NCBI GenBank assembly: GCA_026387335.1
Contig: JAPLLX010000004.1
Coordinates: 13,955 to 77,954, forward strand
Length of the DNA: 64,000 nucleotides
Reading direction: 5' to 3'
Origin: Candidatus Omnitrophota bacterium
Lineage (GTDB): Bacteria > Omnitrophota > Gorgyraeia > Gygaellales > Profunditerraquicolaceae
Shown: piece after piece, positions 1 to 32,225 of the stretch
Layout: every line of letters starts with the position of its first letter
Numbering within the stretch: position 1 is the first letter of the stretch
The notes under the pieces: model-generated
What the model was told of the DNA's origin: nothing
Seen by the model: the letters and a program-made list of their open reading frames with translations, nothing else
Databases searched by the model: none
Translations under genes and position numbers: made by a program

Positions 1-1111
1 GGTGATCCATCTCAGTATCTTGGTAAGCGGTAGCCAGATGGACCTCAGTAACAGGATGCTCATTAAGATCCTGCTCACCTTTGCTATTTAAAAGCTCTTC
101 GTCAATACGAGTGCCTTCGGGAACCGGATTACCGGCAAAAACTATAAAATATGGCTCAGGTAGAGTAGATGCGCCATGCTGGACTACTCCGGCAAGGCCA
201 TATTCTTCCCTAGCTACCTTACCTAACTCGCCTAAAGTATTAAAACCTACCTTGGCCTTGGCTAGCTTACCCTGAGCATCCCTTACGCCGCCATGCTTAG
301 TCCCGGTCTGCACAGCAATCTTGGTTATGGATTCAAGGTCAAGTCCTTCTTCTCGGCTGAGTCTTCGTAATTCAGGGTTATAACCATCCATAAAAGCCCT
401 GAGGTCTTCCACGGTGCTATTTTTCTGTTTGGCTTTATCCAAACCCATACCGATTTCGCCAATCTCACCACCTAAATTTACCACAATGCCTAATTTATCT
501 AAACCTAACCTTCTTTCTTCTTTACGTATATATCTAGTCAACTCTGCTGTTAGCTTATAGTTAAGCTCCTGTTGTTCCTTATGAGTCAACTTATTCCAGT
601 CTACTAACTGAGACAGATCCACGTCTATCTGGTAAAAACCCGCCTCTAGTGCTTCAGTAATGAGTTCCTTTTCATCCTGGATTGCCTTTTCAGGATTCTT
701 TAAATAATCCTTAAGGGCTATCTGGAAGTGATCCCCCTGTAAATACAAGGTCTGGTTATAGCCTTCTTTAATAGCTGCAGCCAGCATTGAAGTAGTAAAT
801 TCAATAGGACGTTGGCCAGTATATTTTATTTCTGATTTGGCAATTTCCAATATAACCTTAGTTACGTTATTCTTAACAGCAGACTTCAATGCTGCCCTGG
901 CAGTATCATAGGCCATACCTCTGATGTTTATAGCCGGAACAGTGTAATGTGTCGGATCTTTTGCCTTTTGTACATATAAATTATGGACAGAACCAAGATT
1001 AATCCCTAGAGAGGCGGCGATACCCTTAATCAGTTGTCGGGATTTATTAACTATCTCTTGATTCGGGTTAAAGGTGGCATCATAGACTAATTGATCAATT
1101 AATACACTTCG
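1..1111 (-). other. Class II fructose-bisphosphate aldolase-like domain of the giant ORF, partial; an estimated ~115 aa of the domain lie beyond the window
   Basis: About 45% identity over ~370 aa to the stand-alone FBA encoded at 30799..32124, for example PAINIRGMAYDTARAALKSAVKNN against PAINLRSMSYDLARAIFRVAAKNN, plus LQGDHFQ, GGEIGEIG, TVEDLRAFMDGY, QTGTKHGG and VQHGASTLPE. Confidence 0.7.
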
Positions 1112-4100
1112 TAAGGCAGGTTCATTTAATATATTATAGCCGTCAGTAGTAACTTCCACTATTCCTGTTAAGGCGGCATCAAGAGCCTTTACGTCAGCGA
1201 AGTTAAGTCGAGGTTGAGCTAAGTCTGGCAATAGAAACTCCCTACCCGAATTTGAAGTAAGAAATAGTACTGCCTCGGGGCTTGCTCTCTTTATACGATT
1301 CTGCGAAGCAATAGGATCCTTGGTCTGGAACTCTGTGCGAATTACAAAAACACTGCCATCAGGAGTAATTGTAAGTGTATTCGTAGTCACCGTTCCTGCG
1401 GCATTATTAAAAGTTACGCGTTGCATTAAATCTGAGAACGTCGGGCCAAAAAACTTCTCCGAAGCTCCGGTTACTGCTGTTATAGCAAAAGTTCCGCTTC
1501 CTTGGAAATCTGCTGAATTGTAAGTTCTTCGCTGGGCATCAGCACTATAGCCCAACGCATCAAACATTCGTAAGTCTTCTTCTGTAAAACTATCGGCGGT
1601 TTGCGGGCTCACATCTTTTGCAGTCATTTTCTCGGAAACAAACCTATGACTAAACTGCCCATTAGGAACTAATGCTGCCACAAGCTCTGCAATAGTAGCC
1701 TCAGCAGAACCGCTCCTGCCGAACACCATCATCTTATATCCATCGAGGTCTAACCCCAATGAAGCCACTGCCCGCGGAGCAAAATCACCGTCGTCAGGGG
1801 TAAGTAACTTAATCCCGGGATATTTTTCTTGCAGTTGCTTGGCATCTTCAATAATTCTTAAATGCCGGCTGTCGCCTGACTGCGTAGGTTGTTTGGCAAG
1901 ATCCTTATCGCGAGAACCTAAAGTTAAAATTACAAGATGATTCATAAAATCTGCGTAGAAGCCTGTAAAGGCAGGGTCTGTTACTTCAATCCCTTTCTGC
2001 CTGGCTAAGGCAACTGCGATTCTGCGTGTGGCAATACTCGGAAGATCAAGAGGTTGAACTCCGGCATCTCTCGGGGCATTAAAACTTACCCCTGCAATAC
2101 GGAATTTATCCCAAACCGTTCTTCTAATTCCGCCTGGCAGATCTTTGAATAAAGCAGCTAACGACCAACTGTTAGTTGCCTGCGTAGCTGCCTCTTTAAC
2201 AATAAGGCCGTTGGTATGCTCAAGCGCGTCACCGGCAAAATAATTAATATTTACGCCTATTTTGCGCAATTCATTGACTTCGGCCTCAAGGCTTTTGAAA
2301 AAGTTTTCCGGGTCAGGGTCCCAATAGCCTTTCGCGTAACCCTTCCAGTAAATACGGCCTCTTTTTAGAGAAACTGCGTCATCTCTTTCTCCCTCATCCG
2401 CAATAACAATTATAGCTTCAAGGGGGTTGGCTTCAATAAAAGAGACTAAGCTTCTTCTGCTAAACTCAACTGCATTGGCATCAGCAATATTCTTTCCCTG
2501 TTTAGTGCCCACGCCTGCATAAAGAATCGAGCCCATAGCTTGGCCGATAGAAGTCTCAATTACTGCTCTTGTAGTAGGTTGCTTTAGGACTTCTTTAGTC
2601 GGGAAATTACCTTGTAACCTTACCACTTTTATTGTACTCTTTTTAAGGCCAAAATCTGTAAGCACCTTCCCAAAAGACGCGGGGATATCTTGATTTTCTA
2701 ATTCTGTGCCTGTTTGTAAAGCTAAGTTGGCGAGTGATTCCTGCGCGGCAGCGGCTTTTCCTTCTGCGGTCATATACGGCAGATAAGACTTAAGGTACTC
2801 AACGAATTGCTGCTTAAAAGCGCTCATATCTGAAGGTTCAACATCGCCTTTCACCACTGTTGCATCCTCCCCGGTAGAAATATTACTGACTACAACACCA
2901 TCAACCGGTAAAACAAATTTATTCTTTAATTCTGGATCAGCCAATAACTTACTCGCAATCTGGACTTGAAGTTGGTCAGGCATAGAATCACCTACTTTCT
3001 TACCCTGAGCTGCCAGAAAAGCAAGCGCCATTCTACCGCCGATTATAAAGAGATCTGTTTCTTTCTTTAAGGAATCAAATAGATCAATCTTAGTGTCAAG
3101 TTTTGCTCCGGCCAAAATAACTACTAAAGGCTTCACAGGATTATTACGGAGTTGTTTTAAGTAAGTATATTCATTTGCTAAACTTAATCCTGCGAATTTC
3201 GTTCCGAGAGCAAAAAATCTGGTGATTGCCTGAACAGAAGCATGAGCACGATGGTCAACCGAAAAGGAATCGTTAACATAATATTTCGCTATTCGGCTTA
3301 ACGCTTGAGCAAAAGCCTCGTTATTTAGTTCTTCGGCTAACCTAAAGCGGAGATTCTCTAAGAAAACAACTTCTCCGTTTTTCTGAGTATTCTGGATAAA
3401 ATCTTCTACCGGCTTACCAATACAATCATCTAATTTATACACCGGTACTCCCAGAAGTCTCTGGAGCTCTTTTGCTACAGGATCAGTCCTGAGCTTCTCA
3501 TCAACCTTTCCATTTGGCCTACCTAAATGAGTAGCTACAATAAGTTTGACTTTCTTGGCTAATAATGCTTGCGCGGTAGGAAGGATTGCCCTGAGCCTAG
3601 AATTATCGGTTATATTTAAATTTGAATCTAAAGGAACATTACCGTCTATGCGTAGAAAGACGGTATCTCCTTCTTTTACATTCTGTAAGAGACTATCAAA
3701 CTGGGAAAGCTCACCTGTAACAGGATCAATTAAAACTTTGACTCCCGGCAGGTTTTCCACTCCAAATTTGAATGCCTCTAAGAATGCTCCGCCGGCCATT
3801 GAGACATAGTCAAATTGATCCCTCTCTTTTTCAGATAATGTCGCTATAGTATCGCCTCCACCTACGATTTTCTTTATTGTTTTAGGCAAACTTAAAACGT
3901 TCTTGGCCGTACCTTTTGTGCCGTAGCTTGTAGATTCTACTTCCGCTACTCCCATAGGCCCATTCCAGAGCACCGTGCCCTTATCTCCAGCAGCTGAAAA
4001 AACCTCCTGCATTCTTTTCATATCAAGCTCCACGCTTGCCGGGCCAATATCCGCAATAACCTTGCCTTTAATGTGGGAAAAGGCATTTTCATAAACTATG

Positions 4101-7100
4101 AGGTTCACCATACGATTGGAGAAACCAGTTTCATTATCATACCAAGTCTCTAACCTGATGATTGTCTGATCAAGCTCATCATCGTAATCAACAATTTCAA
4201 TAGAATTACCATCCACAATAGTAGAAGCAGGATTACCAACAATAGTGGCGGATGTAATCGGATCCTGAGTATAAGCCAAAAGGCCCGCAAATTTATTTTG
4301 GCTGGCTTTTCTAAACGCATTTTGGATCTGTTCTTTAGTCACCTTACCCTTACGTACGACTAACAAGTCAACAACCGAACCTGTAGGGTTAGGAGTACGT
4401 ATTGCCCAACCATCAGATTTTCCGGTTAAGGAAGGGAATATTTTAGCTGCGGTTTTAGCAGCTCCGGTTGAAGCAGGCTCGGCATTACCTAATGCACTCC
4501 TACCACGCACAGGCTCTTTTTTATGCAGGTCTTGCTTGGCAAAATTCTGATCCGTAGTATAACCATGCACAGTAAGCATATCCTGAGAAACAATTCTACC
4601 TTCTATAGGAAGGCCTTCCTGTTCCAATGCGGAAATTTCATTTTCAAACGGTTCATCTAAAACAGCACCTACGGGCATTAAAGCATTAGTAGTGCAGCTG
4701 GCATTATCTTTAGTGAGGGCAGCCCGGGTTGGTTCAACTACACCCAAGACAATAGATTGTCCTACTCCTTCTGCCGGCGCAGTAATAATTACTTTCCCAC
4801 CTTTAATATGCGTAAGGTGAGCCATAGCGTCATCAGCATTCTTTAAATCTCCGGAACTTTCTGCGATAATTTTTATGCCTGCTACATCCCAGGGGAGCTC
4901 TGAAACTGCTTTTCTTTCGTTAACAATCAGGACTTTCTTCCCATTTATATCTAAAACACCTACCAGACTTTTTAATAACCAGTTAATTGAACTTTGCAGC
5001 TCAGCTCGAGGCTTTCCCCATGAAACTAAGAGTTTTTCAAGATAAGGAACAAGCTCTTCTTTCTCCTGAAGCATATACAATCTCTGGGAATCGATCTGAC
5101 CGTTGATAATCCCTTTTACCTGATCTTCTGTATAATTATTTAAAAGTTGAGAGATTTCCTTCTTTAATTGCTTAGGGGTTAAAATAATCCTAGTCACCGG
5201 TTTAGGCGTGGACTGCTGGATTGAATCTGCGGCTAAAAGCCAGGATATGATTAACATGTTGCTTGGGCCATTAATCATCCTGAGGTCAACATTCGGGTCT
5301 CCCTGCATAGCCCAGGCTATGGTCCTGCCTGTTCTACCCGGCCCATTTTCTCCCACAATTGCTGACTGCATCGGCTTACCTTTATATGTAAAGCGGGGCC
5401 GGCTTTTTCCGTCAAGAGACGGAATATAGCTGGAATTAGTATCCAAAAACTTAGGCCTTATAATTTGAGATTGCGCATCTTGAGCCGCGGAAAGAACGCT
5501 TTCAATTTCTTCGGAAATGGTTTGAGAATCTTTAGAGGTAACAATAGACGCAATCTTCCCTTCTTTCATACCATCCAACATTAAAGGAAGCTGGCTTAAG
5601 GCGAAAGTCGTATCCTCGTTATGTAAAACCTGTAGATGAACCATATTTTTTCCCGTAACTTTAGTCTGTTTACCCAAAACAACAATCGGCGCCTGTTTAT
5701 AGGTATCTAAAGAAACTTTCGAGTTATCCTCGGAATAAACAAGCTTACCCCTAAGAGCGCCTTCTGCGGCATCTTTAAAGATTTTGTTTATTGAAGCAAC
5801 ATCCGTATTAGAATTTAAAACCATCTTGACATCTAATATGCAACCGAGCATCTGCGGAGCAAAATGAACCCTTCCCTTGATTCGTCCGGATAAATCAGGA
5901 GAAAACATTTTACCCACATATTCATCTATATCCCTGCTTAAGGCAGGAGCAATATTATTTCCCGAAGAACGCATAAGAACCGGGTCTGGCCCGGAATTAT
6001 CCAAGCCACGCTGTAACGATGAAGGTGGCTGAACATCTGTAAAACTAACACCCCTGATTGTTTCCTGCGGGATAAGAGACAAAACCGGCCTTAAAGCGCT
6101 GACTGCAGTTAAAGCAGGATTCGTAACAATGACAAATTGAGCGCCCTGGCTTTTATGGCTAGCAGCTAACTGAGGGTTTTGGCCTTCAATTACAGCTTGC
6201 GCATTTAATTCCTTCCAAGGAAACTCTTTGGGGTTAGAAATTGCAGAAACCTTTAAAACGAGTTTCCCGTTTCTTCCCAAGCCTTCGGGTAAAACTTGAA
6301 AATTCTTATTAAACCAGTTTCTGAACGCGGGAGTTGCAGAAAAATCTTTGGTTAAAAGATAATAAAGGTTATCGGCAGAAACGCCGTTTACTCCCACTAA
6401 TTCAACGTCTTTACTCTTACCTAAGAGCCATTCACGGATAAGTTCCCGTTCCTGCGCACCGGGATTATTTATCGCAACTTTTACCGGCGAGCTCATGCTT
6501 GCTCTTGTTAATTCGTGTGCTGTAGGAGTCCCCGATGCATCCACTAGAATTCCCTTAAGTGTAGGAAGAAGCGTATCCACTACTGTTGTTATATTGAAAG
6601 TTGCTCCCTGCATTCTCGCGTCTACTTCCAGACCTGTAAGGATTTGACCACCGCTAAAATAACTCCGGATTACCTGTCCGGTAGGAGTACGTACTGTTTC
6701 CTTAATATTATACTCGCCTTGAGCGAAGGATTTTTTATAAGCGTTAAAATAAGTAGATTTAGACCAGGCGGCGGCGGAAGTAAGGCCGGTAAGGTCTTTT
6801 CTGTCAATACGCGAAGCGTATTTACCTTCCTGACCGGTAAAATGAGACTTAAACCAGCGAGAGAGAATGATGGAATAATAGACCTGCCTTAAGGAAGCGT
6901 AACGTTTGGAAAGATTCACTTCTTTGGTTAATTTAGGGATAATTAATTCGCGGATTAACTGGGAAGAATATTCGTTTAACGCCTTAGCCCGGCTGTCTTT
7001 AAAGCTATAGGTAGCCGAATCCTTAAGAAAATCCTGCTCCAGCATGACCTTTAAGGTCGCCTTATAGATATAGGCGCTGTCGTTGGTCTGACGGACAATG

Positions 7101-7654
7101 ATTTCATTGGGGACTATCCAGGGACGGGTCAAGGTAGGAATGGTTACTTCCTGGTAGCCATAGAGTTCTTCGGCCTTCTTATAAAGCCTGTTCCAGTATT
7201 CCCGGCCTTCGGGAGTTTCGGGTGAAGTAAATTGGGCGGTATCTTTCTTTAGCTGCAGGTCTGTCTCAAGCATGATTTTGCCTACGTCAGTCCTGGCTAA
7301 GTAGTCATCTATAATGTTATCTTCGGAATCCGGGCGCAGGTTTACCCAAAACTTGTCGCTGGGAAGATTTATACCTACTAGAAAATAATTTAATAATTCC
7401 TGGGTAGCGGCGTCAAGCTGTTTTCCCTTAAGCTCCTTGATATCGCCTTTATCCAACATTACCTTAATATTATCATTCTGGCTGTCAAAGGAGAAAAAAC
7501 GGATATGTACAGGCCTAAACCTATCCTGGACAAAGCCACCGGACATCTTAGATAAATGGCCGGCCAGATTAAGTTCGGTTGCGATACTGGCGAAACCTAT
7601 CTGCTGGAAGACCAAACACAGGGAAATTAGCAGGGAAGAAATTTTACGCCACAT
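1..7654 (-). CDS. Giant secreted multi-domain protein, at least 2551 aa in the window, with its C-terminus running off the window at position 1. Order of parts: signal peptide, ~390 aa unassigned, degenerate GAPDH-like, intact GAPDH-like, circularly permuted PGK-like, GlpX-type FBPase-like, class II FBA-like (partial)
   Basis: Hand translation of the reverse strand from ATG at 7654..7652 (AGGAGG 8 nt upstream) continues without a stop to position 2. The ORF track shows no competing long ORF in 1..7650. Motifs read directly: MWRKISSLLISLCLVFQQIGFASIA; NASCTTNALMP...TVHGYTTDQ...WYDNETGFSNRMVNL (GAPDH); RIDGNVP...THLGRPNG...LENLRFR...NDSFSVDHRAHAS...GGRMALAFL and WNGPMGV...GGGDTIA...MAGGAFLE (PGK); GKNIADANAVE...IADEGERDD...DPDPEN...TPDDGDFA (GlpX); PAINIRGMAYD...LQGDHFQ...QTGTKHGG...VQHGASTLPE (class II aldolase). 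Confidence 0.8.
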   Translation of the reverse strand, partial: MWRKISSLLISLCLVFQQIGFASIATELNLAGHLSKMSGGFVQDRFRPVHIRFFSFDSQNDNIKVMLDKGDIKELKGKQLDAATQELLNYFLVGINLPSDKFWVNLRPDSEDNIIDDYLARTDVGKIMLETDLQLKKDTAQFTSPETPEGREYWNRLYKKAEELYGYQEVTIPTLTRPWIVPNEIIVRQTNDSAYIYKATLKVMLEQDFLKDSATYSFKDSRAKALNEYSSQLIRELIIPKLTKEVNLSKRYASLRQVYYSIILSRWFKSHFTGQEGKYASRIDRKDLTGLTSAAAWSKSTYFNAYKKSFAQGEYNIKETVRTPTGQVIRSYFSGGQILTGLEVDARMQGATFNITTVVDTLLPTLKGILVDASGTPTAHELTRASMSSPVKVAINNPGAQERELIREWLLGKSKDVELVGVNGVSADNLYYLLTKDFSATPAFRNWFNKNFQVLPEGLGRNGKLVLKVSAISNPKEFPWKELNAQAVIEGQNPQLAASHKSQGAQFVIVTNPALTAVSALRPVLSLIPQETIRGVSFTDVQPPSSLQRGLDNSGPDPVLMRSSGNNIAPALSRDIDEYVGKMFSPDLSGRIKGRVHFAPQMLGCILDVKMVLNSNTDVASINKIFKDAAEGALRGKLVYSEDNSKVSLDTYKQAPIVVLGKQTKVTGKNMVHLQVLHNEDTTFALSQLPLMLDGMKEGKIASIVTSKDSQTISEEIESVLSAAQDAQSQIIRPKFLDTNSSYIPSLDGKSRPRFTYKGKPMQSAIVGENGPGRTGRTIAWAMQGDPNVDLRMINGPSNMLIISWLLAADSIQQSTPKPVTRIILTPKQLKKEISQLLNNYTEDQVKGIINGQIDSQRLYMLQEKEELVPYLEKLLVSWGKPRAELQSSINWLLKSLVGVLDINGKKVLIVNERKAVSELPWDVAGIKIIAESSGDLKNADDAMAHLTHIKGGKVIITAPAEGVGQSIVLGVVEPTRAALTKDNASCTTNALMPVGAVLDEPFENEISALEQEGLPIEGRIVSQDMLTVHGYTTDQNFAKQDLHKKEPVRGRSALGNAEPASTGAAKTAAKIFPSLTGKSDGWAIRTPNPTGSVVDLLVVRKGKVTKEQIQNAFRKASQNKFAGLLAYTQDPITSATIVGNPASTIVDGNSIEIVDYDDELDQTIIRLETWYDNETGFSNRMVNLIVYENAFSHIKGKVIADIGPASVELDMKRMQEVFSAAGDKGTVLWNGPMGVAEVESTSYGTKGTAKNVLSLPKTIKKIVGGGDTIATLSEKERDQFDYVSMAGGAFLEAFKFGVENLPGVKVLIDPVTGELSQFDSLLQNVKEGDTVFLRIDGNVPLDSNLNITDNSRLRAILPTAQALLAKKVKLIVATHLGRPNGKVDEKLRTDPVAKELQRLLGVPVYKLDDCIGKPVEDFIQNTQKNGEVVFLENLRFRLAEELNNEAFAQALSRIAKYYVNDSFSVDHRAHASVQAITRFFALGTKFAGLSLANEYTYLKQLRNNPVKPLVVILAGAKLDTKIDLFDSLKKETDLFIIGGRMALAFLAAQGKKVGDSMPDQLQVQIASKLLADPELKNKFVLPVDGVVVSNISTGEDATVVKGDVEPSDMSAFKQQFVEYLKSYLPYMTAEGKAAAAQESLANLALQTGTELENQDIPASFGKVLTDFGLKKSTIKVVRLQGNFPTKEVLKQPTTRAVIETSIGQAMGSILYAGVGTKQGKNIADANAVEFSRRSLVSFIEANPLEAIIVIADEGERDDAVSLKRGRIYWKGYAKGYWDPDPENFFKSLEAEVNELRKIGVNINYFAGDALEHTNGLIVKEAATQATNSWSLAALFKDLPGGIRRTVWDKFRIAGVSFNAPRDAGVQPLDLPSIATRRIAVALARQKGIEVTDPAFTGFYADFMNHLVILTLGSRDKDLAKQPTQSGDSRHLRIIEDAKQLQEKYPGIKLLTPDDGDFAPRAVASLGLDLDGYKMMVFGRSGSAEATIAELVAALVPNGQFSHRFVSEKMTAKDVSPQTADSFTEEDLRMFDALGYSADAQRRTYNSADFQGSGTFAITAVTGASEKFFGPTFSDLMQRVTFNNAAGTVTTNTLTITPDGSVFVIRTEFQTKDPIASQNRIKRASPEAVLFLTSNSGREFLLPDLAQPRLNFADVKALDAALTGIVEVTTDGYNILNEPALRSVLIDQLVYDATFNPNQEIVNKSRQLIKGIAASLGINLGSVHNLYVQKAKDPTHYTVPAINIRGMAYDTARAALKSAVKNNVTKVILEIAKSEIKYTGQRPIEFTTSMLAAAIKEGYNQTLYLQGDHFQIALKDYLKNPEKAIQDEKELITEALEAGFYQIDVDLSQLVDWNKLTHKEQQELNYKLTAELTRYIRKEERRLGLDKLGIVVNLGGEIGEIGMGLDKAKQKNSTVEDLRAFMDGYNPELRRLSREEGLDLESITKIAVQTGTKHGGVRDAQGKLAKAKVGFNTLGELGKVAREEYGLAGVVQHGASTLPEPYFIVFAGNPVPEGTRIDEELLNSKGEQDLNEHPVTEVHLATAYQDTEMDH
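1333..2572 (-). other. GlpX-type (class II) fructose-1,6-bisphosphatase-like domain with ~45- and ~20-aa insertions
   Basis: GKNIADANAVEFSRRSL aligns to GDKNTADGAAVNAMRIML; IIVIADEGERDDAVSL to TIVIGEGEIDEAPML; YWDPDPEN to AVDPIEGT; SFNAP to FLNAP; KLLTPDDGDFAPRAVAS to VFAIPDGDVAASIL; MMVFGRSGSAEATIAELVAALVPNG to VLYGIGGAPEGVVSAAVIRALDG; GTFAITAVTGAS to VIFSATGITKG. The metal-ligand Asp and Glu positions are retained. Confidence 0.5.
2845..4066 (-). other. Phosphoglycerate kinase-like domain, circularly permuted (C-terminal third first, then the N-domain up to the permutation point)
   Basis: The first segment IADIGPASVE...LWNGPMGVAEVE...IVGGGDTIATL...MAGGAFLEAFKFGVENLPGV matches the PGK C-terminal region. 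It is followed directly by RIDGNVP...ITDNSRLRAILPT...ATHLGRPNG...VVFLENLRFRLAEE...NDSFSVDHRAHAS...ILAGAKLDTKIDL...IIGGRMALAFL...LPVDGVVV, which is the PGK N-domain and the start of the C-domain. Confidence 0.65.
4090..5365 (-). other. Intact GAPDH-like domain of the giant ORF, with a ~90-aa insertion in the NAD-binding part
   Basis: AIVGENGPGRTGR...INGKKVLIVNER...LPWDVAGIKIIAESSG...KGGKVIITAPAEG...NASCTTNALMPVGAVLDE...TVHGYTTDQ...ASTGAAKTAAKIFPSLTGK...TPNPTGSVVDLLV...WYDNETGFSNRMVNL. The catalytic Cys and His are present. Confidence 0.7.
5460..6490 (-). other. Degenerate, probably non-catalytic GAPDH-like domain of the giant ORF
   Basis: VKVAINNPGAQER replaces the Rossmann INGFGRIGR. NGKLVLKVSAISNPKEFPWKELNAQAVIEGQ...AASHKSQGAQFVIVTNPA aligns to the GAPDH NAD domain. 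TNPALTAVSALRPV sits where SCTTNCLAP would be, so there is no Cys. SFTDVQPP replaces TVHAxTATQ, so there is no His. GRIKGRVHFAPQMLGCILDVKM aligns to GKLTGMAFRVPTxNVSVVDL. This stretch was re-translated carefully (6300..5821). Confidence 0.55.
7577..7654 (-). other. Sec-type signal peptide (or N-in signal anchor) of the giant ORF
   Basis: M-W-R-K n-region, 18-residue hydrophobic core ISSLLISLCLVFQQIGFA, then SIA. Confidence 0.6.
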
Positions 7655-7728
7655 TTTTACATCCTCCTTTTTTCTGGTTCCTCATTATTAAATACTTTTT
7701 AAAATTCCTTTTAATTCCACAAAAAAGA

Positions 7729-7757
7729 AAGCCGAACTGACCCTTTCAGTTCGGCTT
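7729..7757. terminator. Perfect 12-bp stem hairpin (AAGCCGAACTGA / CCCTT / TCAGTTCGGCTT) with T-rich tracts on both sides; looks like a bidirectional intrinsic terminator, in the divergent region between the giant ORF and the ppiD-like gene
   Basis: Read directly. Flanked by aaaaaag on the 5' side and aattattttatt on the 3' side. Confidence 0.45.
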
Positions 7758-7952
7758 AATTATTTTATTACGTGGCAGATCCCCGGTCGTCCTCCGATAA
7801 CCGGAAATTTATTAAACCTTAACAAATTTGATAAAGGATAACATATCAACCTGGCCTTGTCAAGTTTTTTTTAAGTTTTTTCAAGCAAACCTACACTTTA
7901 TAGTTGCAAAATCAAAAGTTTAGACTATAATGGATAAAACGTTAACAATAAC

Positions 7953-8012
7953 TCCGCGCATAGCGCGGAGTAAACAAGCGTTAAGCGCCGGAGGCAACGC
8001 TTGTTTAAGGAG
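7953..8012 (+). promoter_or_regulatory. Two strong hairpins in the leader of the ppiD-like gene (CTCCGCGC-ATA-GCGCGGAG, and AAACAAGCGTT-13 nt-AACGCTTGTTT), followed by an AAGGAG RBS
   Basis: Perfect 8-bp and 11-bp stems read directly. The second stem ends 1 nt before the RBS. Confidence 0.4.
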
Positions 8013-8018
8013 AAACTG

Positions 8019-9401
8019 ATGCTTAAAATATTGCGCCATAAAAAGACAGCCAAAAAAGTCTGGATATTCCTGGCTTTAATCATAATACCCGCCTTTGCGC
8101 TTTGGGGTTTTGGCGGGGCATTCCGTTCTCGTGAAGAAAATATGCCCGCGGGCAAAATTTTTGGACGGGCCATATCCAAGCTTGAACTTAAGGATTCGCT
8201 GAGCGCCGCCACAACCATAGCCATTCTACAATACGGAGATAAACTCCCCGAGATACAGAAATACCTTAACCTTGAAGGTCAAGCCTGGCAGAGGCTCATT
8301 CTGCTGGAAGAAGCCAAGAGGCGCGCAATTAAAGCTAGCGACGCAGAAGTCATCCAGGCCATTGAAGCCCTTCCCTACTTTCAGTATAAAGGAGGCTTTG
8401 ACAATAAAACTTACCAACAAAACCTGCAGTATATTTTTCGCCTTAATCCGCGCCAATTTGAGGAACAGATGCGCCAAGGCATTATACTCAGTAAGCTCTA
8501 TAAGCAAGTTACCGACAACACAAAAATTGACGAAAATGCGATCGGGAAAGAGTACGAGAAGCTAAACCAGGAAATAAGCATCTACTATATCTCCAGTCTT
8601 TCTGCTGATTTTATCAAGGATATTAAGCCCAGCGCCGGCGAGCTCAATGATTATTTTAGCAAAAATAAGGATATGTTCAGAGAACCGGCTTCCTTTAATA
8701 TAGAATACCTGGTAATAAATTCTGTGGTCCAGGTCAAAGAAATCTCAGAATTATTAAACAAAAAATTCACGTTTGCAAAAATTGCCCAAGAATTAAAATT
8801 ACAACCCAAGGAAACCGGCCTCTTTATTCAGAACAGCCCTGCGCCGGGGCTGGAATGGCTGGCAGAAAACCCGGAGATAATCTCTAAACTTAAAACGGTA
8901 GAATGCAGCCCGCCGGTACAGGTAGGTGATTTGTATTACCTGTTAAAATTAAAGGAAACCAAAGAAGCGCATACTCCGGAATTTAAGGCGGTAGAACAAA
9001 AGGTCAGGCTTGCCCTGATTAATACCGGGGCCCTAAAAAAAGCTGAACAAAAAATAAACCAGTGCGCAAAAGAGCTAAAATCCCGGAAATTTAAACAAGC
9101 GGCCAAAAAATGCGGATTAAAAGTCAAGGAAACCGCCCCCTTTAAATTCGCCAGCAATATTGAAGGTATCGGCGCCGCGGATATATTTTGGAATACCGCA
9201 AAATCCTTAAAAGACACAGAGAATAGCGAAATTATCCGCTTACCTTCCGGTTTCTATATAATTAAGGTAAAGGCCATCTCTAAAATAGACCCTAAAAAAT
9301 TTGAACAGGAGAAAGCAGGGTTTGGGAACAGCTTACTTGAACAGAAAAAACAGGAGAAATTCAGGGAATTCTTGACAGGGTTGAATAAAAAAGCGCAATA
9401 G
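8019..9401 (+). CDS. Periplasmic chaperone PpiD/SurA-like protein with an N-terminal membrane anchor
   Basis: The ORF-track start (TTG 8001) is probably an extension; ATG 8019 sits 6 nt after AAGGAG. N-terminal TM segment WIFLALIIIPAFALWGF, then a SurA_N-like region. No clear parvulin motif was recognised. Confidence 0.5.
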   Translation: MLKILRHKKTAKKVWIFLALIIIPAFALWGFGGAFRSREENMPAGKIFGRAISKLELKDSLSAATTIAILQYGDKLPEIQKYLNLEGQAWQRLILLEEAKRRAIKASDAEVIQAIEALPYFQYKGGFDNKTYQQNLQYIFRLNPRQFEEQMRQGIILSKLYKQVTDNTKIDENAIGKEYEKLNQEISIYYISSLSADFIKDIKPSAGELNDYFSKNKDMFREPASFNIEYLVINSVVQVKEISELLNKKFTFAKIAQELKLQPKETGLFIQNSPAPGLEWLAENPEIISKLKTVECSPPVQVGDLYYLLKLKETKEAHTPEFKAVEQKVRLALINTGALKKAEQKINQCAKELKSRKFKQAAKKCGLKVKETAPFKFASNIEGIGAADIFWNTAKSLKDTENSEIIRLPSGFYIIKVKAISKIDPKKFEQEKAGFGNSLLEQKKQEKFREFLTGLNKKAQ

Positions 9402-9437
9402 GCTAGGAAACCTATTGCGCTTTTAAGATACTAGAGC

Positions 9438-9620
9438 TTAACCTACTTTAATGCAATTTACCGGGCAAGAATCAGCTACTTCCTGCAGGTTACAAGTCGC
9501 GCAAACCTGAGTTTTTACGTGAGCGATCCCGTCTCCCTGCACCTGAAAAACCTCCGGGCAGGATTGCTCGCATAAACCGCAACCTACGCAAGTAGAAGCA
9601 TCAATAGTAACTTTTGACAT
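9438..9620 (-). CDS. fdx: Small 4Fe-4S ferredoxin (60 aa)
   Basis: CVGCGLCEQSCP ... CATCNLQEVADSCP; matches the short archaeal/Thermotoga-type ferredoxins. Confidence 0.8.
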   Translation of the reverse strand: MSKVTIDASTCVGCGLCEQSCPEVFQVQGDGIAHVKTQVCATCNLQEVADSCPVNCIKVG

Positions 9621-9646
9621 TTATCCTCTCCTTACCCACAAGGGTA

Positions 9647-9676
9647 CACCGACGCAATTCCGATTAGCGTCGGGTG
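9647..9676. repeat. Hairpin CACCGACGC-AATTCCGATTA-GCGTCGGGTG; member of a two-copy palindromic family (second copy 40256..40285)
   Basis: Same stem (CCGACGC/GCGTCGG) and a similar 11-nt loop (AATnCCnnTTA) at both loci. Confidence 0.4.
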
Positions 9677-9678
9677 CT

Positions 9679-10158
9679 TTATCTTTCTAACAAATTCTCA
9701 AACATCTCTTCGTGATCGACTTCTTCCGACAATATATGCGTGACTAGCTGATAAGTAACATGATCCTTACCGAGAGTCTTTTTGGCGATCTTACTATAAA
9801 CCTCAATTGCCCCTGCTTCTGCCTCAGTAACAATACGGATGATCCTGTTGATATCCGCGGTATTCTTGGGAGGCATAAGGTACGGCGCGTTGGCGTTCTT
9901 CTCTAAATCCATAGGATTAGCCGTAGGAGCATCGCCTAACTTTATGATCAGATCCGCTACTTCTGTGGCATGCTCTAATTCATCCTTAGCTAATTTTTCC
10001 AGCATTTCTTTCACATCTTCATAAGCCTTGCCGGAAACAATCTGGGCCATATACCAATATAAATAATAAGCGAGCCATTCGTCGCAATACGCCTTATTTA
10101 AATCCTTGACCAGGTCTTTTAAGCTTACCTCTACAATTGCCCTTCCCTGTTTTCCCAT
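9679..10158 (-). CDS. Ferritin-like diiron protein (rubrerythrin/bacterioferritin superfamily, no rubredoxin domain)
   Basis: Diiron EXXH-type motifs DELEHATE and SEEVDHEE; 159 aa. Confidence 0.55.
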   Translation of the reverse strand: MGKQGRAIVEVSLKDLVKDLNKAYCDEWLAYYLYWYMAQIVSGKAYEDVKEMLEKLAKDELEHATEVADLIIKLGDAPTANPMDLEKNANAPYLMPPKNTADINRIIRIVTEAEAGAIEVYSKIAKKTLGKDHVTYQLVTHILSEEVDHEEMFENLLER

Positions 10159-10193
10159 TTCTTACCTCCTTGATTTTCCAGCTTAAGCTCGTT

Positions 10194-11078
10194 TTAAGCC
10201 TGCTGGGCTTCAACTTTCAATCCGTACTTTTTTATGTTATTATCCGCGATCTCCTGAATCTTCTTTAGTTCTTCAGGTTTATTCAATAAATGCTTAAACC
10301 TTCCCTGAAGCTTCAGGTATTCTTCCACCGGCTTAGGCGTAATCTGCCTGCGGTTGCTTAGTAAACCAAACTCATACTCAATCAAAGGATACAGCCCTGT
10401 CTCAACAGCCAACTTGGCTACCACAAGAGTAAGATTTGTTTCATGCCTCCAGCCTAACGGGCAAGGCACATGCACCTGTATATATTTAGGGCCTTTAATG
10501 GAAAGGGCCTTTTTTACTTTCCTCTGTAAATCCTGGGCAAATCCGCTAGAGGCCGTAGCTACATAAGGAATACCGTGGGCATTGGTAATCTCCGGCATCG
10601 GCTTTTTCGGACGAAGGTTCCCCAAGGAAGACGCGCCCGCGGGGCTGGTCGTTGTATTGGTATCAAAAGGAGTAAGCCCGCTTCTTTGCACCCCGGTATT
10701 CATATACGCTTCGTTATCATAACAGACATACAAAATATTGTGCCCGCGCTCAAGCATCCCGGAAAGGGCCTGCAGGCCTATATCCGCGCTGCTTCCGTCT
10801 CCGCCTTGCGCGATAATATTTATACTGTCAGCCTTACCTAAATATTTAATCGCTGATTCAACTCCTGAAGCGACTGCCGCGGCATTCTCAAATAACGAAT
10901 GGATAAAAGGAACTCTCCAGCTTGACTCAGGATATTTGGTCGAGAAGACCTCCAGGCACCCGGTATTATTTACGATAATAGTGTTTGGACCGGCCGCATC
11001 CAATACAAGCCGCGCTGCCATAGACTGGCCGCAACCTGCGCAGGCTGTATGCCCCGGGGCGAACAAAGTCTCAGTCAT
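10194..11078 (-). CDS. porB: Pyruvate:ferredoxin oxidoreductase beta subunit (TPP-binding)
   Basis: CAGCGQSM and GDGSSADIG TPP-fold motifs; in a porG-porD-porA-porB operon. Confidence 0.85.
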   Translation of the reverse strand: MTETLFAPGHTACAGCGQSMAARLVLDAAGPNTIIVNNTGCLEVFSTKYPESSWRVPFIHSLFENAAAVASGVESAIKYLGKADSINIIAQGGDGSSADIGLQALSGMLERGHNILYVCYDNEAYMNTGVQRSGLTPFDTNTTTSPAGASSLGNLRPKKPMPEITNAHGIPYVATASSGFAQDLQRKVKKALSIKGPKYIQVHVPCPLGWRHETNLTLVVAKLAVETGLYPLIEYEFGLLSNRRQITPKPVEEYLKLQGRFKHLLNKPEELKKIQEIADNNIKKYGLKVEAQQA

Positions 11079-11125
11079 CCCGCGACTCCCTTCGATAGCT
11101 GGGGATTTCTAGAGACACAAAATGA

Positions 11126-12307
11126 TTAGTCATAGTTCTCCTTTAAAAGCTCTGGCTTTAAATCTATAAACTCAATCCCCTTCTCCTTGCCGTTCATCAG
11201 CCGGAATATTTCTTTTATAGAATCCTTAGTGATATCGCGTCCGCCTAAACCTACCACAAAACTGTTTATACTTTGAGGTTTCTTCGTCTTGCCGGAAAAT
11301 ACAGCCTTAACTTCCACGTGAAGAGGAGCAAATGACCCTAAAGAGAGGGCCCGATCAATAACCGCGACTTTAGGGATATTTTTTAAAGCAGTGTATATCT
11401 CATCAACTGGAAAAGGCCTTAAAGATGTAACCTTAAGTAAACCCACTTTTTTACCCTTGACCCTTAATTCATCAATGACCTCTTTTATTGTACCGCAGAC
11501 TGAGCCCATAGCCACAATCACTTTTTCAGCATCCTTAAGCTGATAACCCTCAACTAAGCCATTATAAGTCCTGCCGAACACTTTTGAAAATTCCGCAGTA
11601 AGTTTAGGGATAAGAGCTAAAGCTTCTTTATGTGTTTCATTAAGGGCATAGCGAGCCTCCATATAATATTCAGGGTCAACTAACGGACCCAAGGTCAGAG
11701 GATTCTCTACATCTAATTTATAAGGGGGCTTATAAGGCGGTAAAAATTTATCTACCTGTTCCTGCGTGGGCATATCTACTGTCTCTAACCCGTGAGTAAG
11801 AATAAAACCATCCATACAGACCATCACCGGAAGCATTATGGATTTATCTTCGCCTAATTTGTAAGCGATAAGATGTAGATCCACTACTTCCTGTATATCT
11901 TCGGCATGGAACTGAATCCAGCCTGAATCGCGCAGGGAGACCGCATCCTGATGGTCGTTCCAGATATTTATGGGAGCGGATATCGCCCGGGCAGCAGTAG
12001 TCATAATTACAGGTAAACGCATGCCGGCAATATTATAAAGGACTTCGGCCATATAAAACAACCCTTGAGAACTGGTAGCGGTATAAGCGCGCACCCCTGT
12101 TGCCACTGCGCCTAAAACTACGGAGGCCGCGGAATGTTCGCTTTCTACATTAACAAATTGGGCATTCAGCTGGCCGTCAGCGACTATCTGGGCAAGTCCT
12201 TCCACAATATGAGTCTGAGGAGTAATGGGGTAGGCGGAGATTACTCCGGGCTTACAGCGCTTGATAATCTCAGCTACCGCCATTGAACCTTCTAATAATT
12301 CTTTCAT
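11126..12307 (-). CDS. porA: Pyruvate:ferredoxin oxidoreductase alpha subunit
   Basis: 393 aa; typical PorA N-terminus (MAVAEIIKRCKPGVISAYPITPQTHIVE). Confidence 0.85.
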   Translation of the reverse strand: MKELLEGSMAVAEIIKRCKPGVISAYPITPQTHIVEGLAQIVADGQLNAQFVNVESEHSAASVVLGAVATGVRAYTATSSQGLFYMAEVLYNIAGMRLPVIMTTAARAISAPINIWNDHQDAVSLRDSGWIQFHAEDIQEVVDLHLIAYKLGEDKSIMLPVMVCMDGFILTHGLETVDMPTQEQVDKFLPPYKPPYKLDVENPLTLGPLVDPEYYMEARYALNETHKEALALIPKLTAEFSKVFGRTYNGLVEGYQLKDAEKVIVAMGSVCGTIKEVIDELRVKGKKVGLLKVTSLRPFPVDEIYTALKNIPKVAVIDRALSLGSFAPLHVEVKAVFSGKTKKPQSINSFVVGLGGRDITKDSIKEIFRLMNGKEKGIEFIDLKPELLKENYD

Positions 12308-12308
12308 A

Positions 12309-12572: not shown

Positions 12573-12583
12573 TAACGAACTCC

Positions 12584-13135: not shown

Positions 13136-13198
13136 TTTCTCCTTAGCCGTTACAAAGTTTGTTAATTATATATTCTTTGCGCTGGTTTGTCAAATCTT

Positions 13199-13828: not shown

Positions 13829-13859
13829 ATCTCCTCCTTTATTAATAATCCCGCTAAAA

Positions 13860-15352: not shown

Positions 15353-15363
15353 CTTTCTTTACT

Positions 15364-25920: not shown

Positions 25921-25989
25921 GGCATTGAATTAGGCGTGCCTCTGGCGTTTACGCCTAATTCATACTTGCCACCGGCAAGTATATTTCTC

Positions 25990-26982: not shown

Positions 26983-27000
26983 TTTTTTACTCCTCCCTTT

Positions 27001-27474: not shown

Positions 27475-27475
27475 A

Positions 27476-32223: not shown

Positions 32224-32225
32224 TA

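What the first reader, a model, noticed from the sequence alone, without database searches (positions are those of the whole stretch)
1..7654. Giant secreted ORF built from a chain of glycolytic/gluconeogenic enzyme domains (GAPDH x2, PGK, GlpX FBPase, class II FBA)
A single uninterrupted reading frame of at least 2551 codons begins with a textbook signal peptide and contains, in order, homologues of GAPDH (a dead copy then an intact copy), PGK, fructose-1,6-bisphosphatase (GlpX type) and class II aldolase. These are consecutive steps of lower gluconeogenesis; only triose-phosphate isomerase is not recognisable. It is not an operon read-through: there are no stops, RBSs or start codons at the junctions, one domain is circularly permuted, and one is degenerate. 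I know of no described megaprotein with this architecture. Possible roles are a substrate-channelling metabolon, or a surface-displayed moonlighting adhesin scaffold; GAPDH, PGK and FBA are classic moonlighting surface proteins.
Basis: partly seen in the sequence, partly recalled or inferred. Interest (0 to 1): 0.95.

Follow-up and report, generated by a model that had tools for sequence, protein, structure and literature searches.

The report
Capped multi-enzyme glycolysis protein of Omnitrophota
One real gene in an uncultured Omnitrophota bacterium strings seven sugar-metabolism enzyme domains into a 3,600-residue protein behind an export-type signal, and it belongs to a very large, apparently undescribed family in which conserved head and tail modules bracket swappable enzyme cassettes.

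Summary
Window 7654->1 (minus strand) is one open frame of 2,551 codons with no stop; the other five frames have 91-254. It has its own Shine-Dalgarno site and an upstream terminator.

- a dead GAPDH, then an intact GAPDH
- a truly circularly permuted PGK
- a class II aldolase

The full protein is 3,600 aa. TIM and enolase lie just beyond the window edge.

New context: the organism is Candidatus Omnitrophota. The first ~336 aa (Sec-like signal plus a domain with no known fold) and the last ~120 aa are conserved caps. The N-cap family has more than 7,400 protein clusters with very diverse, mostly cytoplasm-type enzyme cargo. Modules are joined by an enriched ASS(P/A) linker.

A close relative has, at the same syntenic locus, near-identical caps plus TIM-enolase but a different central cassette (PGK ... 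FBP aldolase/phosphatase). The DNA homology ends exactly at the linker.

The window also holds ordinary stand-alone PFK and FBA genes, so the aldolase domain of the giant at least is an extra copy. Catalysis is inferred from conserved residues. Where the protein acts is unresolved.

The parts
7720..7755 (-). Intrinsic terminator-like hairpin (GCCGAACTGAAAGGGTCAGTTCGGC followed by a T-run) ending the upstream transcription unit
   Evidence: Read directly from the sequence. It implies the giant gene is transcribed on its own.
7663..7668 (-). Shine-Dalgarno AGGAGG, 8 nt upstream of the ATG at 7654
7589..7654 (-). Sec-type signal-like peptide, aa 1-22: MWRK / ISSLLISLCLVF / QQIGFA
   Evidence: This is the only strongly hydrophobic segment at the N-terminus. 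The family consensus is M.RKI.SL.LS..LLFQQ.GFAQ, with Q18 invariant and F21 and A22 at least 90% conserved. AlphaFold predicts a helix followed by a low-confidence linker at residues 20-42. No signal-peptide predictor was available.
6647..7588 (-). N-cap domain, aa 23-336: conserved, family-defining, with an orphan fold
6485..6505 (-). Linker motif ASMSSPV (aa 384-390). The cassette breakpoint lies at nt 6483.
   Evidence: The motif [AGST]SS[PA][VLIAM] occurs 463 times against about 20 expected in 213 family proteins. DNA homology to the syntenic locus L043 is 94.7% over 11.3 kb and ends at window 6483. At protein level the homology ends at '...ASMSSPV|'.
5555..6484 (-). Pseudo-GAPDH (GAPDH#1), aa 391-~700
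   Evidence: Gp_dh_N and Gp_dh_C hits. The catalytic Cys is replaced by Leu (NPALT) and the His by Gln (DVQPP). The GxGxxG motif is lost. The same substitutions are found in P0002, P0003 and P0004, at 53-60% identity.
4085..5356 (-). Catalytically intact GAPDH (GAPDH#2), aa 767-1190, with an ~80-aa insert (aa ~822-899, nt 4958-5191) in the NAD-binding domain
   Evidence: E 7e-48 to T. aquaticus GAPDH 1cer. GENGPGRTGR, NASCTTN, TVHGYT, TGAAK and IRTP are all conserved. The insert is conserved in the three homologues P0002, P0003 and P0004.
3725..4069 (-). Circularly permuted PGK, leading piece, aa 1196-1310. It corresponds to the C-terminal part of canonical PGK (DIGP, WNGPMGV, GGGD, LPGV).
   Evidence: Pfam PGK profile positions 283-376. 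It aligns to PDB 7zy7 residues 318-408.
2840..3703 (-). Circularly permuted PGK, main piece, aa 1318-1605. It corresponds to the canonical N-domain plus the first half of the C-domain.
   Evidence: Pfam PGK profile positions 7-277, E 3e-78. RIDGNVP, HLGRP, ENLRF and HRAHAS are conserved. P0002, P0003 and P0004 share the same permuted order, whereas P0013 and P0023 have the canonical order.
1235..2707 (-). GlpX-type (class II) fructose-1,6-bisphosphatase-fold domain, aa ~1650-2140
1..1030 (-). Class II fructose-bisphosphate aldolase-like TIM barrel, aa 2209-2551. It continues to about aa 2630 beyond the window edge.
   Evidence: PF08013 at 26.9 bits and TIGR00167 at E 3e-9. It is 45% identical over its full length to the stand-alone FBA at 30799-32124, which matches PF01116. 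The DH, GGEIGE, QTGT.HGG and QHGASTLP motifs are shared.

Best explanation
This is a genuine single gene. The window holds 2,551 of its 3,600 codons. It comes from a Candidatus Omnitrophota bacterium and encodes a modular multi-enzyme protein.

Architecture (shown):
- a Sec-type signal-like peptide
- a ~310-aa N-cap domain of unknown fold
- an ASSP linker
- a block of [pseudo-GAPDH, GAPDH, circularly permuted PGK, GlpX-type FBPase, class II FBA]
- an ASSA linker, TIM, an ASSA linker, enolase, an ASS(A/P) linker
- a ~120-aa C-cap

Family (shown). It belongs to a very large Omnitrophota-specific family in which the two caps are conserved. The cargo between them is a mosaic of mostly cytoplasm-type enzymes. 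Cargo is exchanged as cassettes at the linkers.

Mechanism (inferred). The caps determine where the protein goes or what it assembles with, most likely Sec-dependent targeting to the cell envelope. The cargo acts as a covalently linked metabolon for the 3-carbon/6-carbon segment of glycolysis or gluconeogenesis (PEP/2PG ... 3PG <-> 1,3BPG <-> GAP <-> DHAP -> FBP -> F6P). The conserved dead GAPDH probably serves as the obligatory partner subunit of the live one.
For: Real gene.
- There are no stops in 2,551 codons, against 91-254 in the other frames, and the gene has its own SD site and an upstream terminator.
- Most domain junctions are supported by independent assemblies: N|G1, G1|G2, G2|PGK, within PGK, GlpX|FBA, TIM|ENO and ENO|C-cap.

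Enzymes look active.
- GAPDH#2, PGK, FBA and enolase keep their catalytic or metal motifs.
- TIM matches the full Pfam profile at E 1.6e-75.

Pathway-level selection.
- The sister allele P0006 replaces GlpX+FBA with the bifunctional FBP aldolase/phosphatase and carries its own PGK.
- P0002 links PFK-FBA-pseudoGAPDH-GAPDH-cpPGK, and P0003 links pseudoGAPDH-GAPDH-cpPGK-enolase.

Caps.
- 211/213 sampled proteins have the N-cap and 181 also have the C-cap. Each occurs once, at the extreme termini.
- The exhaustive search found 7,417 N-cap cluster representatives.
- All 42 genome loci are in Omnitrophota MAGs or bins labelled only 'bacterium' or Planctomycetales, with several loci per genome and one tandem array.

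Cassette exchange.
- The syntenic locus L043 is 94.7% identical over 11.3 kb, up to window 6483 (codon 391, just after ASMSSPV). Nothing downstream in the window matches.
- Protein identity resumes at 98% exactly at ASSAAV.
- The linker motif is about 23-fold enriched.

Extra copy.
- Stand-alone FBA and PFK genes without a signal lie in the same window.

Pseudo-GAPDH is maintained.
- It is 53-60% identical across four homologues with the same substitutions.
Against: - There is no expression, proteomic, localisation or activity evidence.
- A Sec-type signal with a positively charged n-region predicts export of the bulk of the protein. NAD+, ATP/ADP and sugar phosphates are not expected outside the cytoplasm, so catalysis and export are hard to reconcile.
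- The function of both caps is unknown. The N-cap fold has no relative, and no signal-peptide or topology predictor could be run.
- Two junctions, PGK|GlpX and FBA|TIM, have no independent assembly spanning them by my criterion.
- The 3' part of P0001 is 98% identical to P0006 while the 5' cap is 92% identical. A co-assembly chimera at the conserved linker, outside the window, therefore cannot be excluded without reads.
- No phosphoglycerate mutase domain was identified, so the chain from enolase to PGK is not continuous.
Confidence: 0.55

Rival explanations
1. Relocated pathway or metabolic effector. The caps are a dedicated export or targeting system. The cytoplasm-type enzymes work outside the producer's cytoplasm, either in a specialised envelope compartment or inside an attached host or prey cell. 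This fits the proposed epibiotic or predatory lifestyle of many Omnitrophota.
For: - The N-terminus looks like a textbook Sec signal and is conserved family-wide.
- The aldolase domain of the giant at least duplicates a stand-alone housekeeping gene in the same window, and a stand-alone PFK lies beside it.
- Cargo across the family is a broad set of ATP- and NAD-dependent enzymes.
- A preprint reports that 94% of Omnitrophota proteins of at least 10,000 aa, including the multi-enzyme ones, are predicted to carry a signal peptide or TM helices, and that they are flanked by secretion or pilus genes.
- A predatory or host-dependent lifestyle has been proposed for the phylum.
Against: - There is no evidence for delivery machinery at this locus. 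The neighbours are the POR operon, ferritin, a SurA-like chaperone and HisG.
- The caps resemble no known secretion signal or translocator.
- Nothing shows that this particular lineage has a host.
Confidence: 0.2
2. Polyprotein precursor. The ASS(P/A) linkers are processing sites, and the chain is cut into the N-cap, the five-domain block, TIM, enolase and the C-cap.
For: - The linker motif is about 23-fold enriched and sits at module boundaries.
- West-Roberts et al. proposed post-translational cleavage of Omnitrophota giant proteins.
Against: - This protein has no protease domain.
- Inside the central block the domains are fused without linkers. GAPDH#2 runs straight into the PGK piece, and the PGK permutation makes sense only as one chain.
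- The motif is equally well explained as a flexible linker or a recombination junction.
Confidence: 0.12
3. Non-catalytic surface scaffold or adhesin that re-uses glycolytic folds as binding modules (moonlighting).
For: - Signal-like N-terminus.
- One domain is a conserved pseudo-enzyme.
- From general knowledge, GAPDH, PGK, FBA and enolase are classic surface moonlighters in other bacteria.
Against: - Catalytic and metal-binding residues are retained in six of the seven domains.
- The sister allele swaps in non-homologous enzymes with the same reactions, which points to selection on chemistry and not on surface shape.
- No adhesin-type repeats or dockerins are present.
Confidence: 0.08
4. Assembly artefact: a chimeric contig stitching several genes or paralogues into one frame.
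For: - The source is a metagenome-assembled genome.
- The family has conserved caps and linkers that could mislead assemblers.
- Two junctions lack independent support.
Against: - 7.6 kb has no stop, and codon composition is uniform across the cargo.
- P0002, P0003, P0004 and P0005, from other assemblies, are colinear across most junctions.
- P0006, with the same overall design, was recovered identically from ENA, JGI and Logan assemblies.
- The shared DNA at the left breakpoint is only a ~12-nt linker core, too short to cause a k-mer mis-join.
Confidence: 0.05

Closest known systems
Omnitrophota 'multi-enzyme metabolic cluster' giant proteins (bioRxiv 10.64898/2026.06.07.730766) and Archaeovorins (West-Roberts et al., bioRxiv 10.1101/2023.11.21.568195)
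   Same: Same phylum. Many distinct metabolic enzyme Pfams tile one polypeptide. An N-terminal signal peptide or TM helices are predicted. The same paradox arises: cytoplasm-type enzymes are predicted to be exported.
   Different: Those catalogues cover proteins of at least 10,000 aa, with many TM helices, HEAT or dockerin scaffolds and C39/S8 peptidases. This protein is 3,600 aa with one hydrophobic segment, no dockerin and no peptidase. It belongs to a family defined by a conserved N-cap and C-cap with ASS(P/A) linkers. I did not find that architecture mentioned in either text.
Natural fusions of glycolytic enzymes, e.g. the bifunctional PGK/TIM of Thermotoga (NCBIfam NF010569) and the TPI-GAPDH fusions of stramenopile mitochondria (the latter from my own knowledge)
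   Same: Covalent linkage of consecutive glycolytic enzymes. NF010569 is the top NCBIfam hit for the PGK part.
   Different: Those fuse two enzymes in canonical order, are cytosolic or organellar, and have no caps. This protein has seven domains, one dead and one circularly permuted, behind a signal. It scores 304 bits against a cut-off of 883, so it is not that family.
Engineered circularly permuted yeast PGK (PDB 1fw8)
   Same: It shows that PGK tolerates circular permutation. 1fw8 appears among the PDB hits with two matched stretches.
   Different: 1fw8 is a laboratory construct with a different breakpoint. Here the permutation is natural, breaks just before the DIGP motif, and is conserved in at least four proteins.
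Polymorphic cassette systems with conserved ends, such as Rhs/CDI toxins (from general knowledge)
   Same: Strongly conserved terminal trafficking modules combined with rapidly exchanged internal or terminal cargo. A cassette is replaced between close relatives at a fixed junction motif.
   Different: In those systems the cargo is a C-terminal toxin with an adjacent immunity gene. Here both ends are conserved, the cargo is central-metabolism enzymes, and no immunity-like gene is present.
E. coli GlpX class II FBPase (PDB 1ni9)
   Different: Only 18% identity and no Pfam PF03320 hit. The domain has about 200 extra residues as insertions and is embedded in a megaprotein.

Membership tests
Type I GAPDH (TIGR01534 / PF00044+PF02800) | NAD-binding GxGxxG, catalytic Cys149 and His176, and the family score threshold | tested here: inconclusive
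   GAPDH#2 has GENGPGRTGR, the SCTTN Cys and the TVHGYT His. Gp_dh_C scores above its Pfam cut-off, at 104.7 bits for this copy alone. Gp_dh_N for this copy is below its cut-off (19-20 bits against 31.7). TIGR01534 scores 252 against a cut-off of 367, because of an 80-aa insert. GAPDH#1 fails all three catalytic and cofactor features and is a pseudo-enzyme.
Phosphoglycerate kinase (PF00162) | Full-length colinear match to the PGK profile with the substrate and nucleotide motifs | tested here: not met
   The score is 325 bits against a cut-off of 27 and all motifs are present. However, the order is permuted, with profile 283-376 before 7-277. It is homologous to PGK and probably active, but it is a circular permutant and not a canonical member.
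GlpX class II FBPase (PF03320) | Match to the family HMM | tested here: not met
   No Pfam or NCBIfam hit on the whole protein at E <= 0.01, and no Pfam hit on the segments at E <= 1. A PDB profile search was also negative. hhalign to the GlpX-containing P0037 gave only 56% probability.
GlpX class II FBPase (PF03320) | GlpX fold | tested here: met
GlpX class II FBPase (PF03320) | Metal-binding acidic residues and FBPase activity | not testable with these tools
   Acidic motifs are invariant or nearly invariant in five homologues. Equating them with the GlpX ligands rests on my memory of the E. coli enzyme. Activity needs an assay.
Class II fructose-bisphosphate aldolase (PF01116 / TIGR00167) | Family HMM match and the Zn-ligand His residues | tested here: inconclusive
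   PF01116 was not reported for the giant. PF08013 scores 26.9 against a cut-off of 26.7, and TIGR00167 scores 36.5 against 215.6. The domain is nevertheless 45% identical to the window's stand-alone FBA, which passes PF01116 at 61 bits. The DH, GT.HG and QHGAS motifs are shared.
Omnitrophota multi-enzyme giant proteins (2026 preprint, class 1) | Omnitrophota origin, with many distinct enzyme Pfams tiling one polypeptide | tested here: met
Omnitrophota multi-enzyme giant proteins (2026 preprint, class 1) | Length of at least 10,000 aa with multiple TM helices | tested here: not met
   The protein is 3,600 aa. The only strongly hydrophobic N-terminal segment is aa 5-23, and the one other borderline Kyte-Doolittle segment lies inside GAPDH#2.
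Archaeovorin / dockerin-type giants (West-Roberts 2023) | Dockerin or TSP3 repeats, and C39/S8 peptidase near the N-terminus | tested here: not met
   None of these Pfams is found in P0001.
Sec-dependent secreted protein | Cleavable n/h/c-region signal peptide | tested here: inconclusive
   The n-region is MWRK, there is a 12-residue hydrophobic core, and GFA occupies positions -3 to -1. A22 is at least 90% conserved across the family. No SignalP or DeepTMHMM was available, and cleavage and export are untested.
Autotransporter / T1SS adhesin-type carriers | C-terminal beta-barrel translocator, or RTX repeats with a T1SS signal | tested here: not met
   The C-cap is only about 120 aa and has no Pfam or NCBIfam hit. 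No autotransporter or RTX Pfam is found anywhere in P0001. The C-cap structure was not predicted.

The most novel reading that the evidence does not exclude
The N-cap and C-cap constitute a previously unrecognised, phylum-specific carrier system. It takes whole blocks of cytoplasm-type metabolism (here most of the triose and hexose-bisphosphate part of glycolysis or gluconeogenesis) out of the producer's cytoplasm, to an envelope compartment or into an attached host or prey cell. Cargo cassettes are shuffled between strains at short ASS(P/A) linkers. In effect this would be a bacterial 'relocated glycolysis', or a metabolic effector repertoire.
Probability: 0.22. Interest if true: 0.95.

Novelty: new variant of a known kind. 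Interest (0 to 1): 0.8.

Why it matters
Omnitrophota are abundant, uncultured, ultra-small bacteria. Their enormous multi-enzyme proteins are an open puzzle, because they look like cytoplasmic metabolism yet carry export signals.

This locus offers a small, tractable version of that puzzle. It is a 3.6-kAA protein with defined caps and seven recognisable enzymes, including a natural circular permutant of PGK and a maintained pseudo-GAPDH. A natural 'experiment' is also available: a sister strain has exchanged the central cassette for a different set of enzymes that includes the same FBP aldolase and phosphatase reactions.

The finding gives:
(i) a family definition (N-cap, linker, C-cap) that can be used to mine and classify thousands of proteins;
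(ii) direct evidence that cargo evolves by cassette replacement at the linkers;
(iii) concrete constructs for testing localisation, processing and substrate channelling.

If the enzymes really act outside the cytoplasm, that would be a new mode of bacterial metabolism or of host exploitation.

Tried and rejected
- A second homologue search with the GlpX segment returned just 2 proteins.
- The exact-sequence lookup of P0001 found no contig, so I could not extend this window's own contig. I used the P0001 protein sequence and the syntenic P0006 locus instead.
- I looked for a second N- or C-cap in the window and found none. I looked for internal copies of the caps in 213 family proteins and found none. 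That argues against these proteins being read-through tandem arrays.
- I considered that the low GC3 of the central cassette marks it as horizontally acquired. I rejected that as specific evidence, because the sister allele shows the same pattern: caps near 0.5 and all cargo at 0.34-0.46.
- I considered that this might be the genome's only glycolytic enzyme set. For aldolase this is rejected by the stand-alone FBA, which lies next to a stand-alone PFK. It is untested for GAPDH, PGK, TIM and enolase, because only 64 kb of the genome is available.
- Literature searches for Omnitrophota plus glycolytic plus fusion returned nothing. The Omnitrophota papers I read do not mention the caps.

Full report
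**1.

Translating window 7654->1 gives 2,551 codons with no stop and runs off the window start. The other five frames of the same stretch contain 91-254 stops.

The ATG at 7654 is preceded by AAGGAGG. A GC-rich hairpin followed by a T-run lies about 70-100 nt upstream. The gene therefore has its own translation start and follows a terminator. The only in-frame SD-like site plus start inside the gene is at codons 1600-1601, inside PGK and not at a domain boundary. The region is not a run of separate genes.

**2. Every domain call was checked**

- **Profile hits.** Pfam and NCBIfam find two GAPDH units and PGK above threshold, plus a weak class II aldolase signal.
- **GAPDH#1 (aa 391-~700)** aligns to solved GAPDHs. 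Leu replaces the catalytic Cys (NPALT), Gln replaces the His (DVQPP), and the GxGxxG motif is gone.
- **GAPDH#2 (aa 767-1190)** keeps GENGPGRTGR, NASCTTN, TVHGYT, TGAAK and IRTP. It carries an ~80-aa insert in the NAD-binding domain.
- **PGK** is a clean circular permutant.
  - The piece holding DIGP, WNGPMGV, GGGD and LPGV (profile 283-376) comes first.
  - A linker of about 8 residues joins the old C-terminus to the old N-terminus.
  - Profile 7-277 follows, with RIDGNVP, HLGRP, ENLRF and HRAHAS intact.
- **The 'GlpX' stretch (aa ~1650-2140)** has no sequence-profile hit at all.
  - An AlphaFold model built from five homologues has pLDDT 79 and pTM 0.78.
- **The aldolase domain** is 45% identical over its full length to a stand-alone class II FBA elsewhere in the window. 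It shares the DH, GGEIGE, QTGT.HGG and QHGASTLP motifs.

**3. The window holds only part of the protein**

An identical 3,600-aa protein, P0001, is in NCBI from a Candidatus Omnitrophica MAG. Its contig is 328 kb and the protein is named only 'triose-phosphate isomerase'.

After the aldolase come TIM, which matches the full Pfam profile at E 1.6e-75, and a divergent enolase. The enolase keeps the aligned Glu, Asp, Glu, Asp, Lys and His catalytic and metal positions. So TIM is not missing. The chain has seven enzyme-type domains. No phosphoglycerate mutase was recognised.

**4. The larger finding: a capped family**

- **Shared N-cap.** Hundreds of other Omnitrophota proteins of 1,400-4,400 aa share only about 13% of the query. 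This is always the first ~336 residues, at 60-86% identity.
- **Shared C-cap.** The last ~120 residues of P0001 (GGIDFR..PMGNF..LP.LS..PSGERIKE..KEALV) are likewise conserved at the extreme C-terminus of the family.
- **Co-occurrence.** With local HMMs, 211 of 213 sampled proteins have the N-cap and 181 also have the C-cap. Each occurs once. The N-cap is at the start in 210 cases, and the C-cap is within 25 aa of the end in 152. Those lacking a C-cap are mostly short, probably truncated ORFs.
- **Size of the family.** An exhaustive phmmer search of 1.84 billion cluster representatives with the N-cap gave 7,417 hits at E <= 1e-3 and 5,495 at E <= 1e-30. Host proteins range from about 400 to 7,391 aa.
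- **Taxonomic range.** A scan of one genome per species found 42 loci. All were in Omnitrophota MAGs, apart from one bin labelled only 'bacterium' (five loci) and one labelled Planctomycetales.
  - Several genomes had more than one locus, and one contig had three family genes in tandem.
  - A second tier has N-caps at only about 30% identity and no detectable C-cap.
- **Cargo.** From the precomputed Pfam annotations, the cargo between the caps includes:
  - glycolysis, gluconeogenesis and pentose-phosphate enzymes;
  - PGM/PMM, PPDK and PEP synthase;
  - nucleotide kinases and NUDIX;
  - protein kinases and GGDEF;
  - radical SAM and glycosyltransferases;
  - M48 and M23 peptidases, HEAT repeats and others.

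**5. What the caps are**

The N-terminus has a basic n-region, a 12-residue hydrophobic core, and GFA at positions -3 to -1. That is a textbook Sec-type signal, but its sequence is unusually conserved (LxFQQxGFAQ).

**6. Linkers and cassette exchange**

- **Linker motif.** The short motif [AGST]-S-S-[PA]-[VLIAM] occurs 463 times in the 213 proteins, against about 20 expected from shuffles. In P0001 it sits at the N-cap|cargo, FBA|TIM, TIM|enolase and enolase|C-cap boundaries. It does not occur inside the block from pseudo-GAPDH to FBA.
- **A sister protein with a different centre.** P0006 (3,652 aa) was recovered identically from ENA, JGI and Logan assemblies.
  - It is 92% identical to P0001 over aa 1-398 and 98% identical over aa 2630-3600. 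It is unrelated in between.
  - The homology ends at '...ASMSSPV|' and resumes at '|ASSAAVQVRR...'.
- **Same locus.** The P0006 gene lies at the same syntenic locus as ours: DsbD, AhpC, PNPOx, a 344-aa ORF, an EF-hand protein, the POR operon, ferritin, a divergent SurA, then the giant gene.
- **Nucleotide-level breakpoint.** Window 17738..6483 matches that locus at 94.7% over 11.3 kb. The match stops at nt 6483, which is codon 391, and nothing downstream in the window matches. This is a cassette replacement between close relatives at an orthologous locus, with breakpoints at the linkers.
- **Replacement cargo.** The replacement cassette carries a canonical-order PGK and the bifunctional FBP aldolase/phosphatase (FBPase_3). 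That supplies the same chemistry as GlpX plus FBA using different proteins.
- **Other relatives.** P0002 links PFK-FBA-pseudoGAPDH-GAPDH-cpPGK behind a different N-terminus. P0003 links N-cap-pseudoGAPDH-GAPDH-cpPGK-enolase-C-cap.
- **A conserved sub-block.** The pseudoGAPDH-GAPDH-cpPGK trio is conserved. The pseudo-enzyme is as well conserved as the active domains, at 53-60% identity.

**7. Chimera check**

Independent assemblies span these junctions: N-cap|G1 (4 proteins), G1|G2 (3), G2|PGK (3), the PGK permutation point (3), GlpX|FBA (3 proteins), TIM|ENO (2) and ENO|C-cap (7).

PGK|GlpX and FBA|TIM have no such support. The latter lies at a conserved linker outside the window. Without reads, a co-assembly chimera there cannot be fully excluded. 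At the left breakpoint the shared DNA is only a ~12-nt linker core, too short to mislead an assembler.

**8. How it probably works**

*Shown.* The architecture, the caps, the linkers, the cassette exchange, and the retention of catalytic motifs in six of seven domains. Also shown: the same window encodes ordinary stand-alone FBA and PFK genes without a signal, so at least the aldolase domain of the giant is an extra copy and not the housekeeping one.

*Inferred.* The cargo is catalytically active and works as a covalently tethered metabolon for the triose and hexose-bisphosphate segment. The pseudo-GAPDH supplies the partner subunit for the active one, since GAPDH is an obligate oligomer (general knowledge). 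The caps set location or assembly.

*Unresolved.* Location is the weak point. The signal predicts export, yet the chemistry needs NAD+, ATP/ADP and sugar phosphates. Two readings remain:
- the N-terminus tethers the protein at the membrane;
- the pathway really is relocated, to an envelope compartment or to an attached host or prey cell.

Processing at the linkers, and a purely structural or adhesive role, are lesser rivals.

**9. Relation to what is known**

Two preprints describe Omnitrophota giant proteins of at least 10,000 aa that tile many metabolic enzyme domains. About 94% of them are predicted to carry signal peptides or TM helices, and the authors note the same paradox. Neither text mentions conserved N/C caps, the linker motif or cassette replacement. 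A full-text search for Omnitrophota plus glycolytic plus fusion found nothing.

Known glycolytic fusions such as PGK/TIM (NF010569) involve two enzymes. An engineered circularly permuted PGK exists in the PDB as 1fw8.

I therefore rate this a new variant of a known kind. It shows the same phenomenon as the Omnitrophota multi-enzyme giants, in a smaller, sharply defined and apparently undescribed family with a demonstrable mode of evolution.

**10. Verdict**

The functional interpretation remains open.

| Score | Value |
|---|---|
| Interest | 0.8 |
| Confidence in the best explanation as a whole | 0.55 |
| - architecture, family and cassette exchange | about 0.9 |
| - tethered catalytic metabolon at the envelope | about 0.45 |

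Noticed in passing
window 30799-33203 (minus strand): Ordinary stand-alone glycolytic genes sit side by side: a 441-aa class II FBA (30799-32124, PF01116) and a 325-aa ATP-PFK (32226-33203). The FBA is 45% identical to the giant's aldolase domain and has no hydrophobic N-terminus.
   Followed up: yes
window 1-7654; L043 10001-20959: GC3 steps down from about 0.5 in the N-cap (and the C-cap in L043) to 0.31-0.46 in all cargo. The median GC3 of 25 host genes in the window is 0.49. Both alleles show the same pattern, so it is a cap-versus-cargo property and not evidence that one cassette is foreign. The cause is unknown.
   Followed up: partly
window 6476-6505; linkers in L001-L023 and L043: The ASS(P/A) linkers also show a DNA-level signature. 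The Ser-Ser pair is encoded AGY-TCG in 21/58 linkers, against 14/254 other Ser-Ser dipeptides (odds ratio 9.7, P = 5e-9). The core is AGC-TCG-(G/C)CG-G. It may be a recombination junction or the result of shared descent.
   Followed up: partly
L008 (SCRK01000074.1), 199-15907: Three capped family genes lie in tandem. Each C-cap is followed 35-50 nt later by the next N-cap.
   Followed up: partly
L024-L039: A second, divergent tier of N-cap-like domains (~30% identity) occurs in other Omnitrophota MAGs, at the start of ORFs of 1,000 to more than 3,600 aa. My C-cap HMM detects no C-cap in them.
   Followed up: partly
window 4958-5191 (aa ~822-899): An ~80-residue insert, helical-looking by sequence, interrupts the NAD-binding domain of the active GAPDH. 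It is conserved at 50-62% identity in P0002, P0003 and P0004. Its function is unknown.
   Followed up: partly
window 8001-9401 (plus strand): A SurA-like periplasmic chaperone/PPIase gene lies divergently next to the giant gene. It keeps that position in the syntenic locus L043/L044/L045. This could be coincidence, or it could relate to export of the giant protein.
   Followed up: no
window 13199-13828 (minus strand): A small 209-aa protein with EF-hand, Excalibur and dockerin-like calcium-binding repeats. blastn shows internal DNA repeats around 13551-13687.
   Followed up: no
P0002 (2,485 aa, Logan assembly): The block FBA-pseudoGAPDH-GAPDH-cpPGK also occurs behind a different hydrophobic N-terminus, without the N-cap, and is preceded by a PFK domain. 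Cargo blocks therefore move between different carriers.
   Followed up: partly
window 2852-2857 (codons 1600-1601): The only in-frame SD-like motif (GGGGAGGA) followed by GTG inside the gene. It lies near the end of the PGK main piece and is probably chance.
   Followed up: no
window 40139-40523 (minus strand): A cluster of three tRNA genes: Gly-GCC, Leu-TAG and Lys-TTT.
   Followed up: no
window 24400-30789 and 33185-39601 (minus strand): Ordinary biosynthetic genes of normal size surround the locus: LeuA-like, KARI, acetolactate synthase, IlvD, SAH hydrolase, SAM synthetase, a PTS enzyme I-like protein and CofD. Gene fusion is therefore not a genome-wide habit.
   Followed up: no
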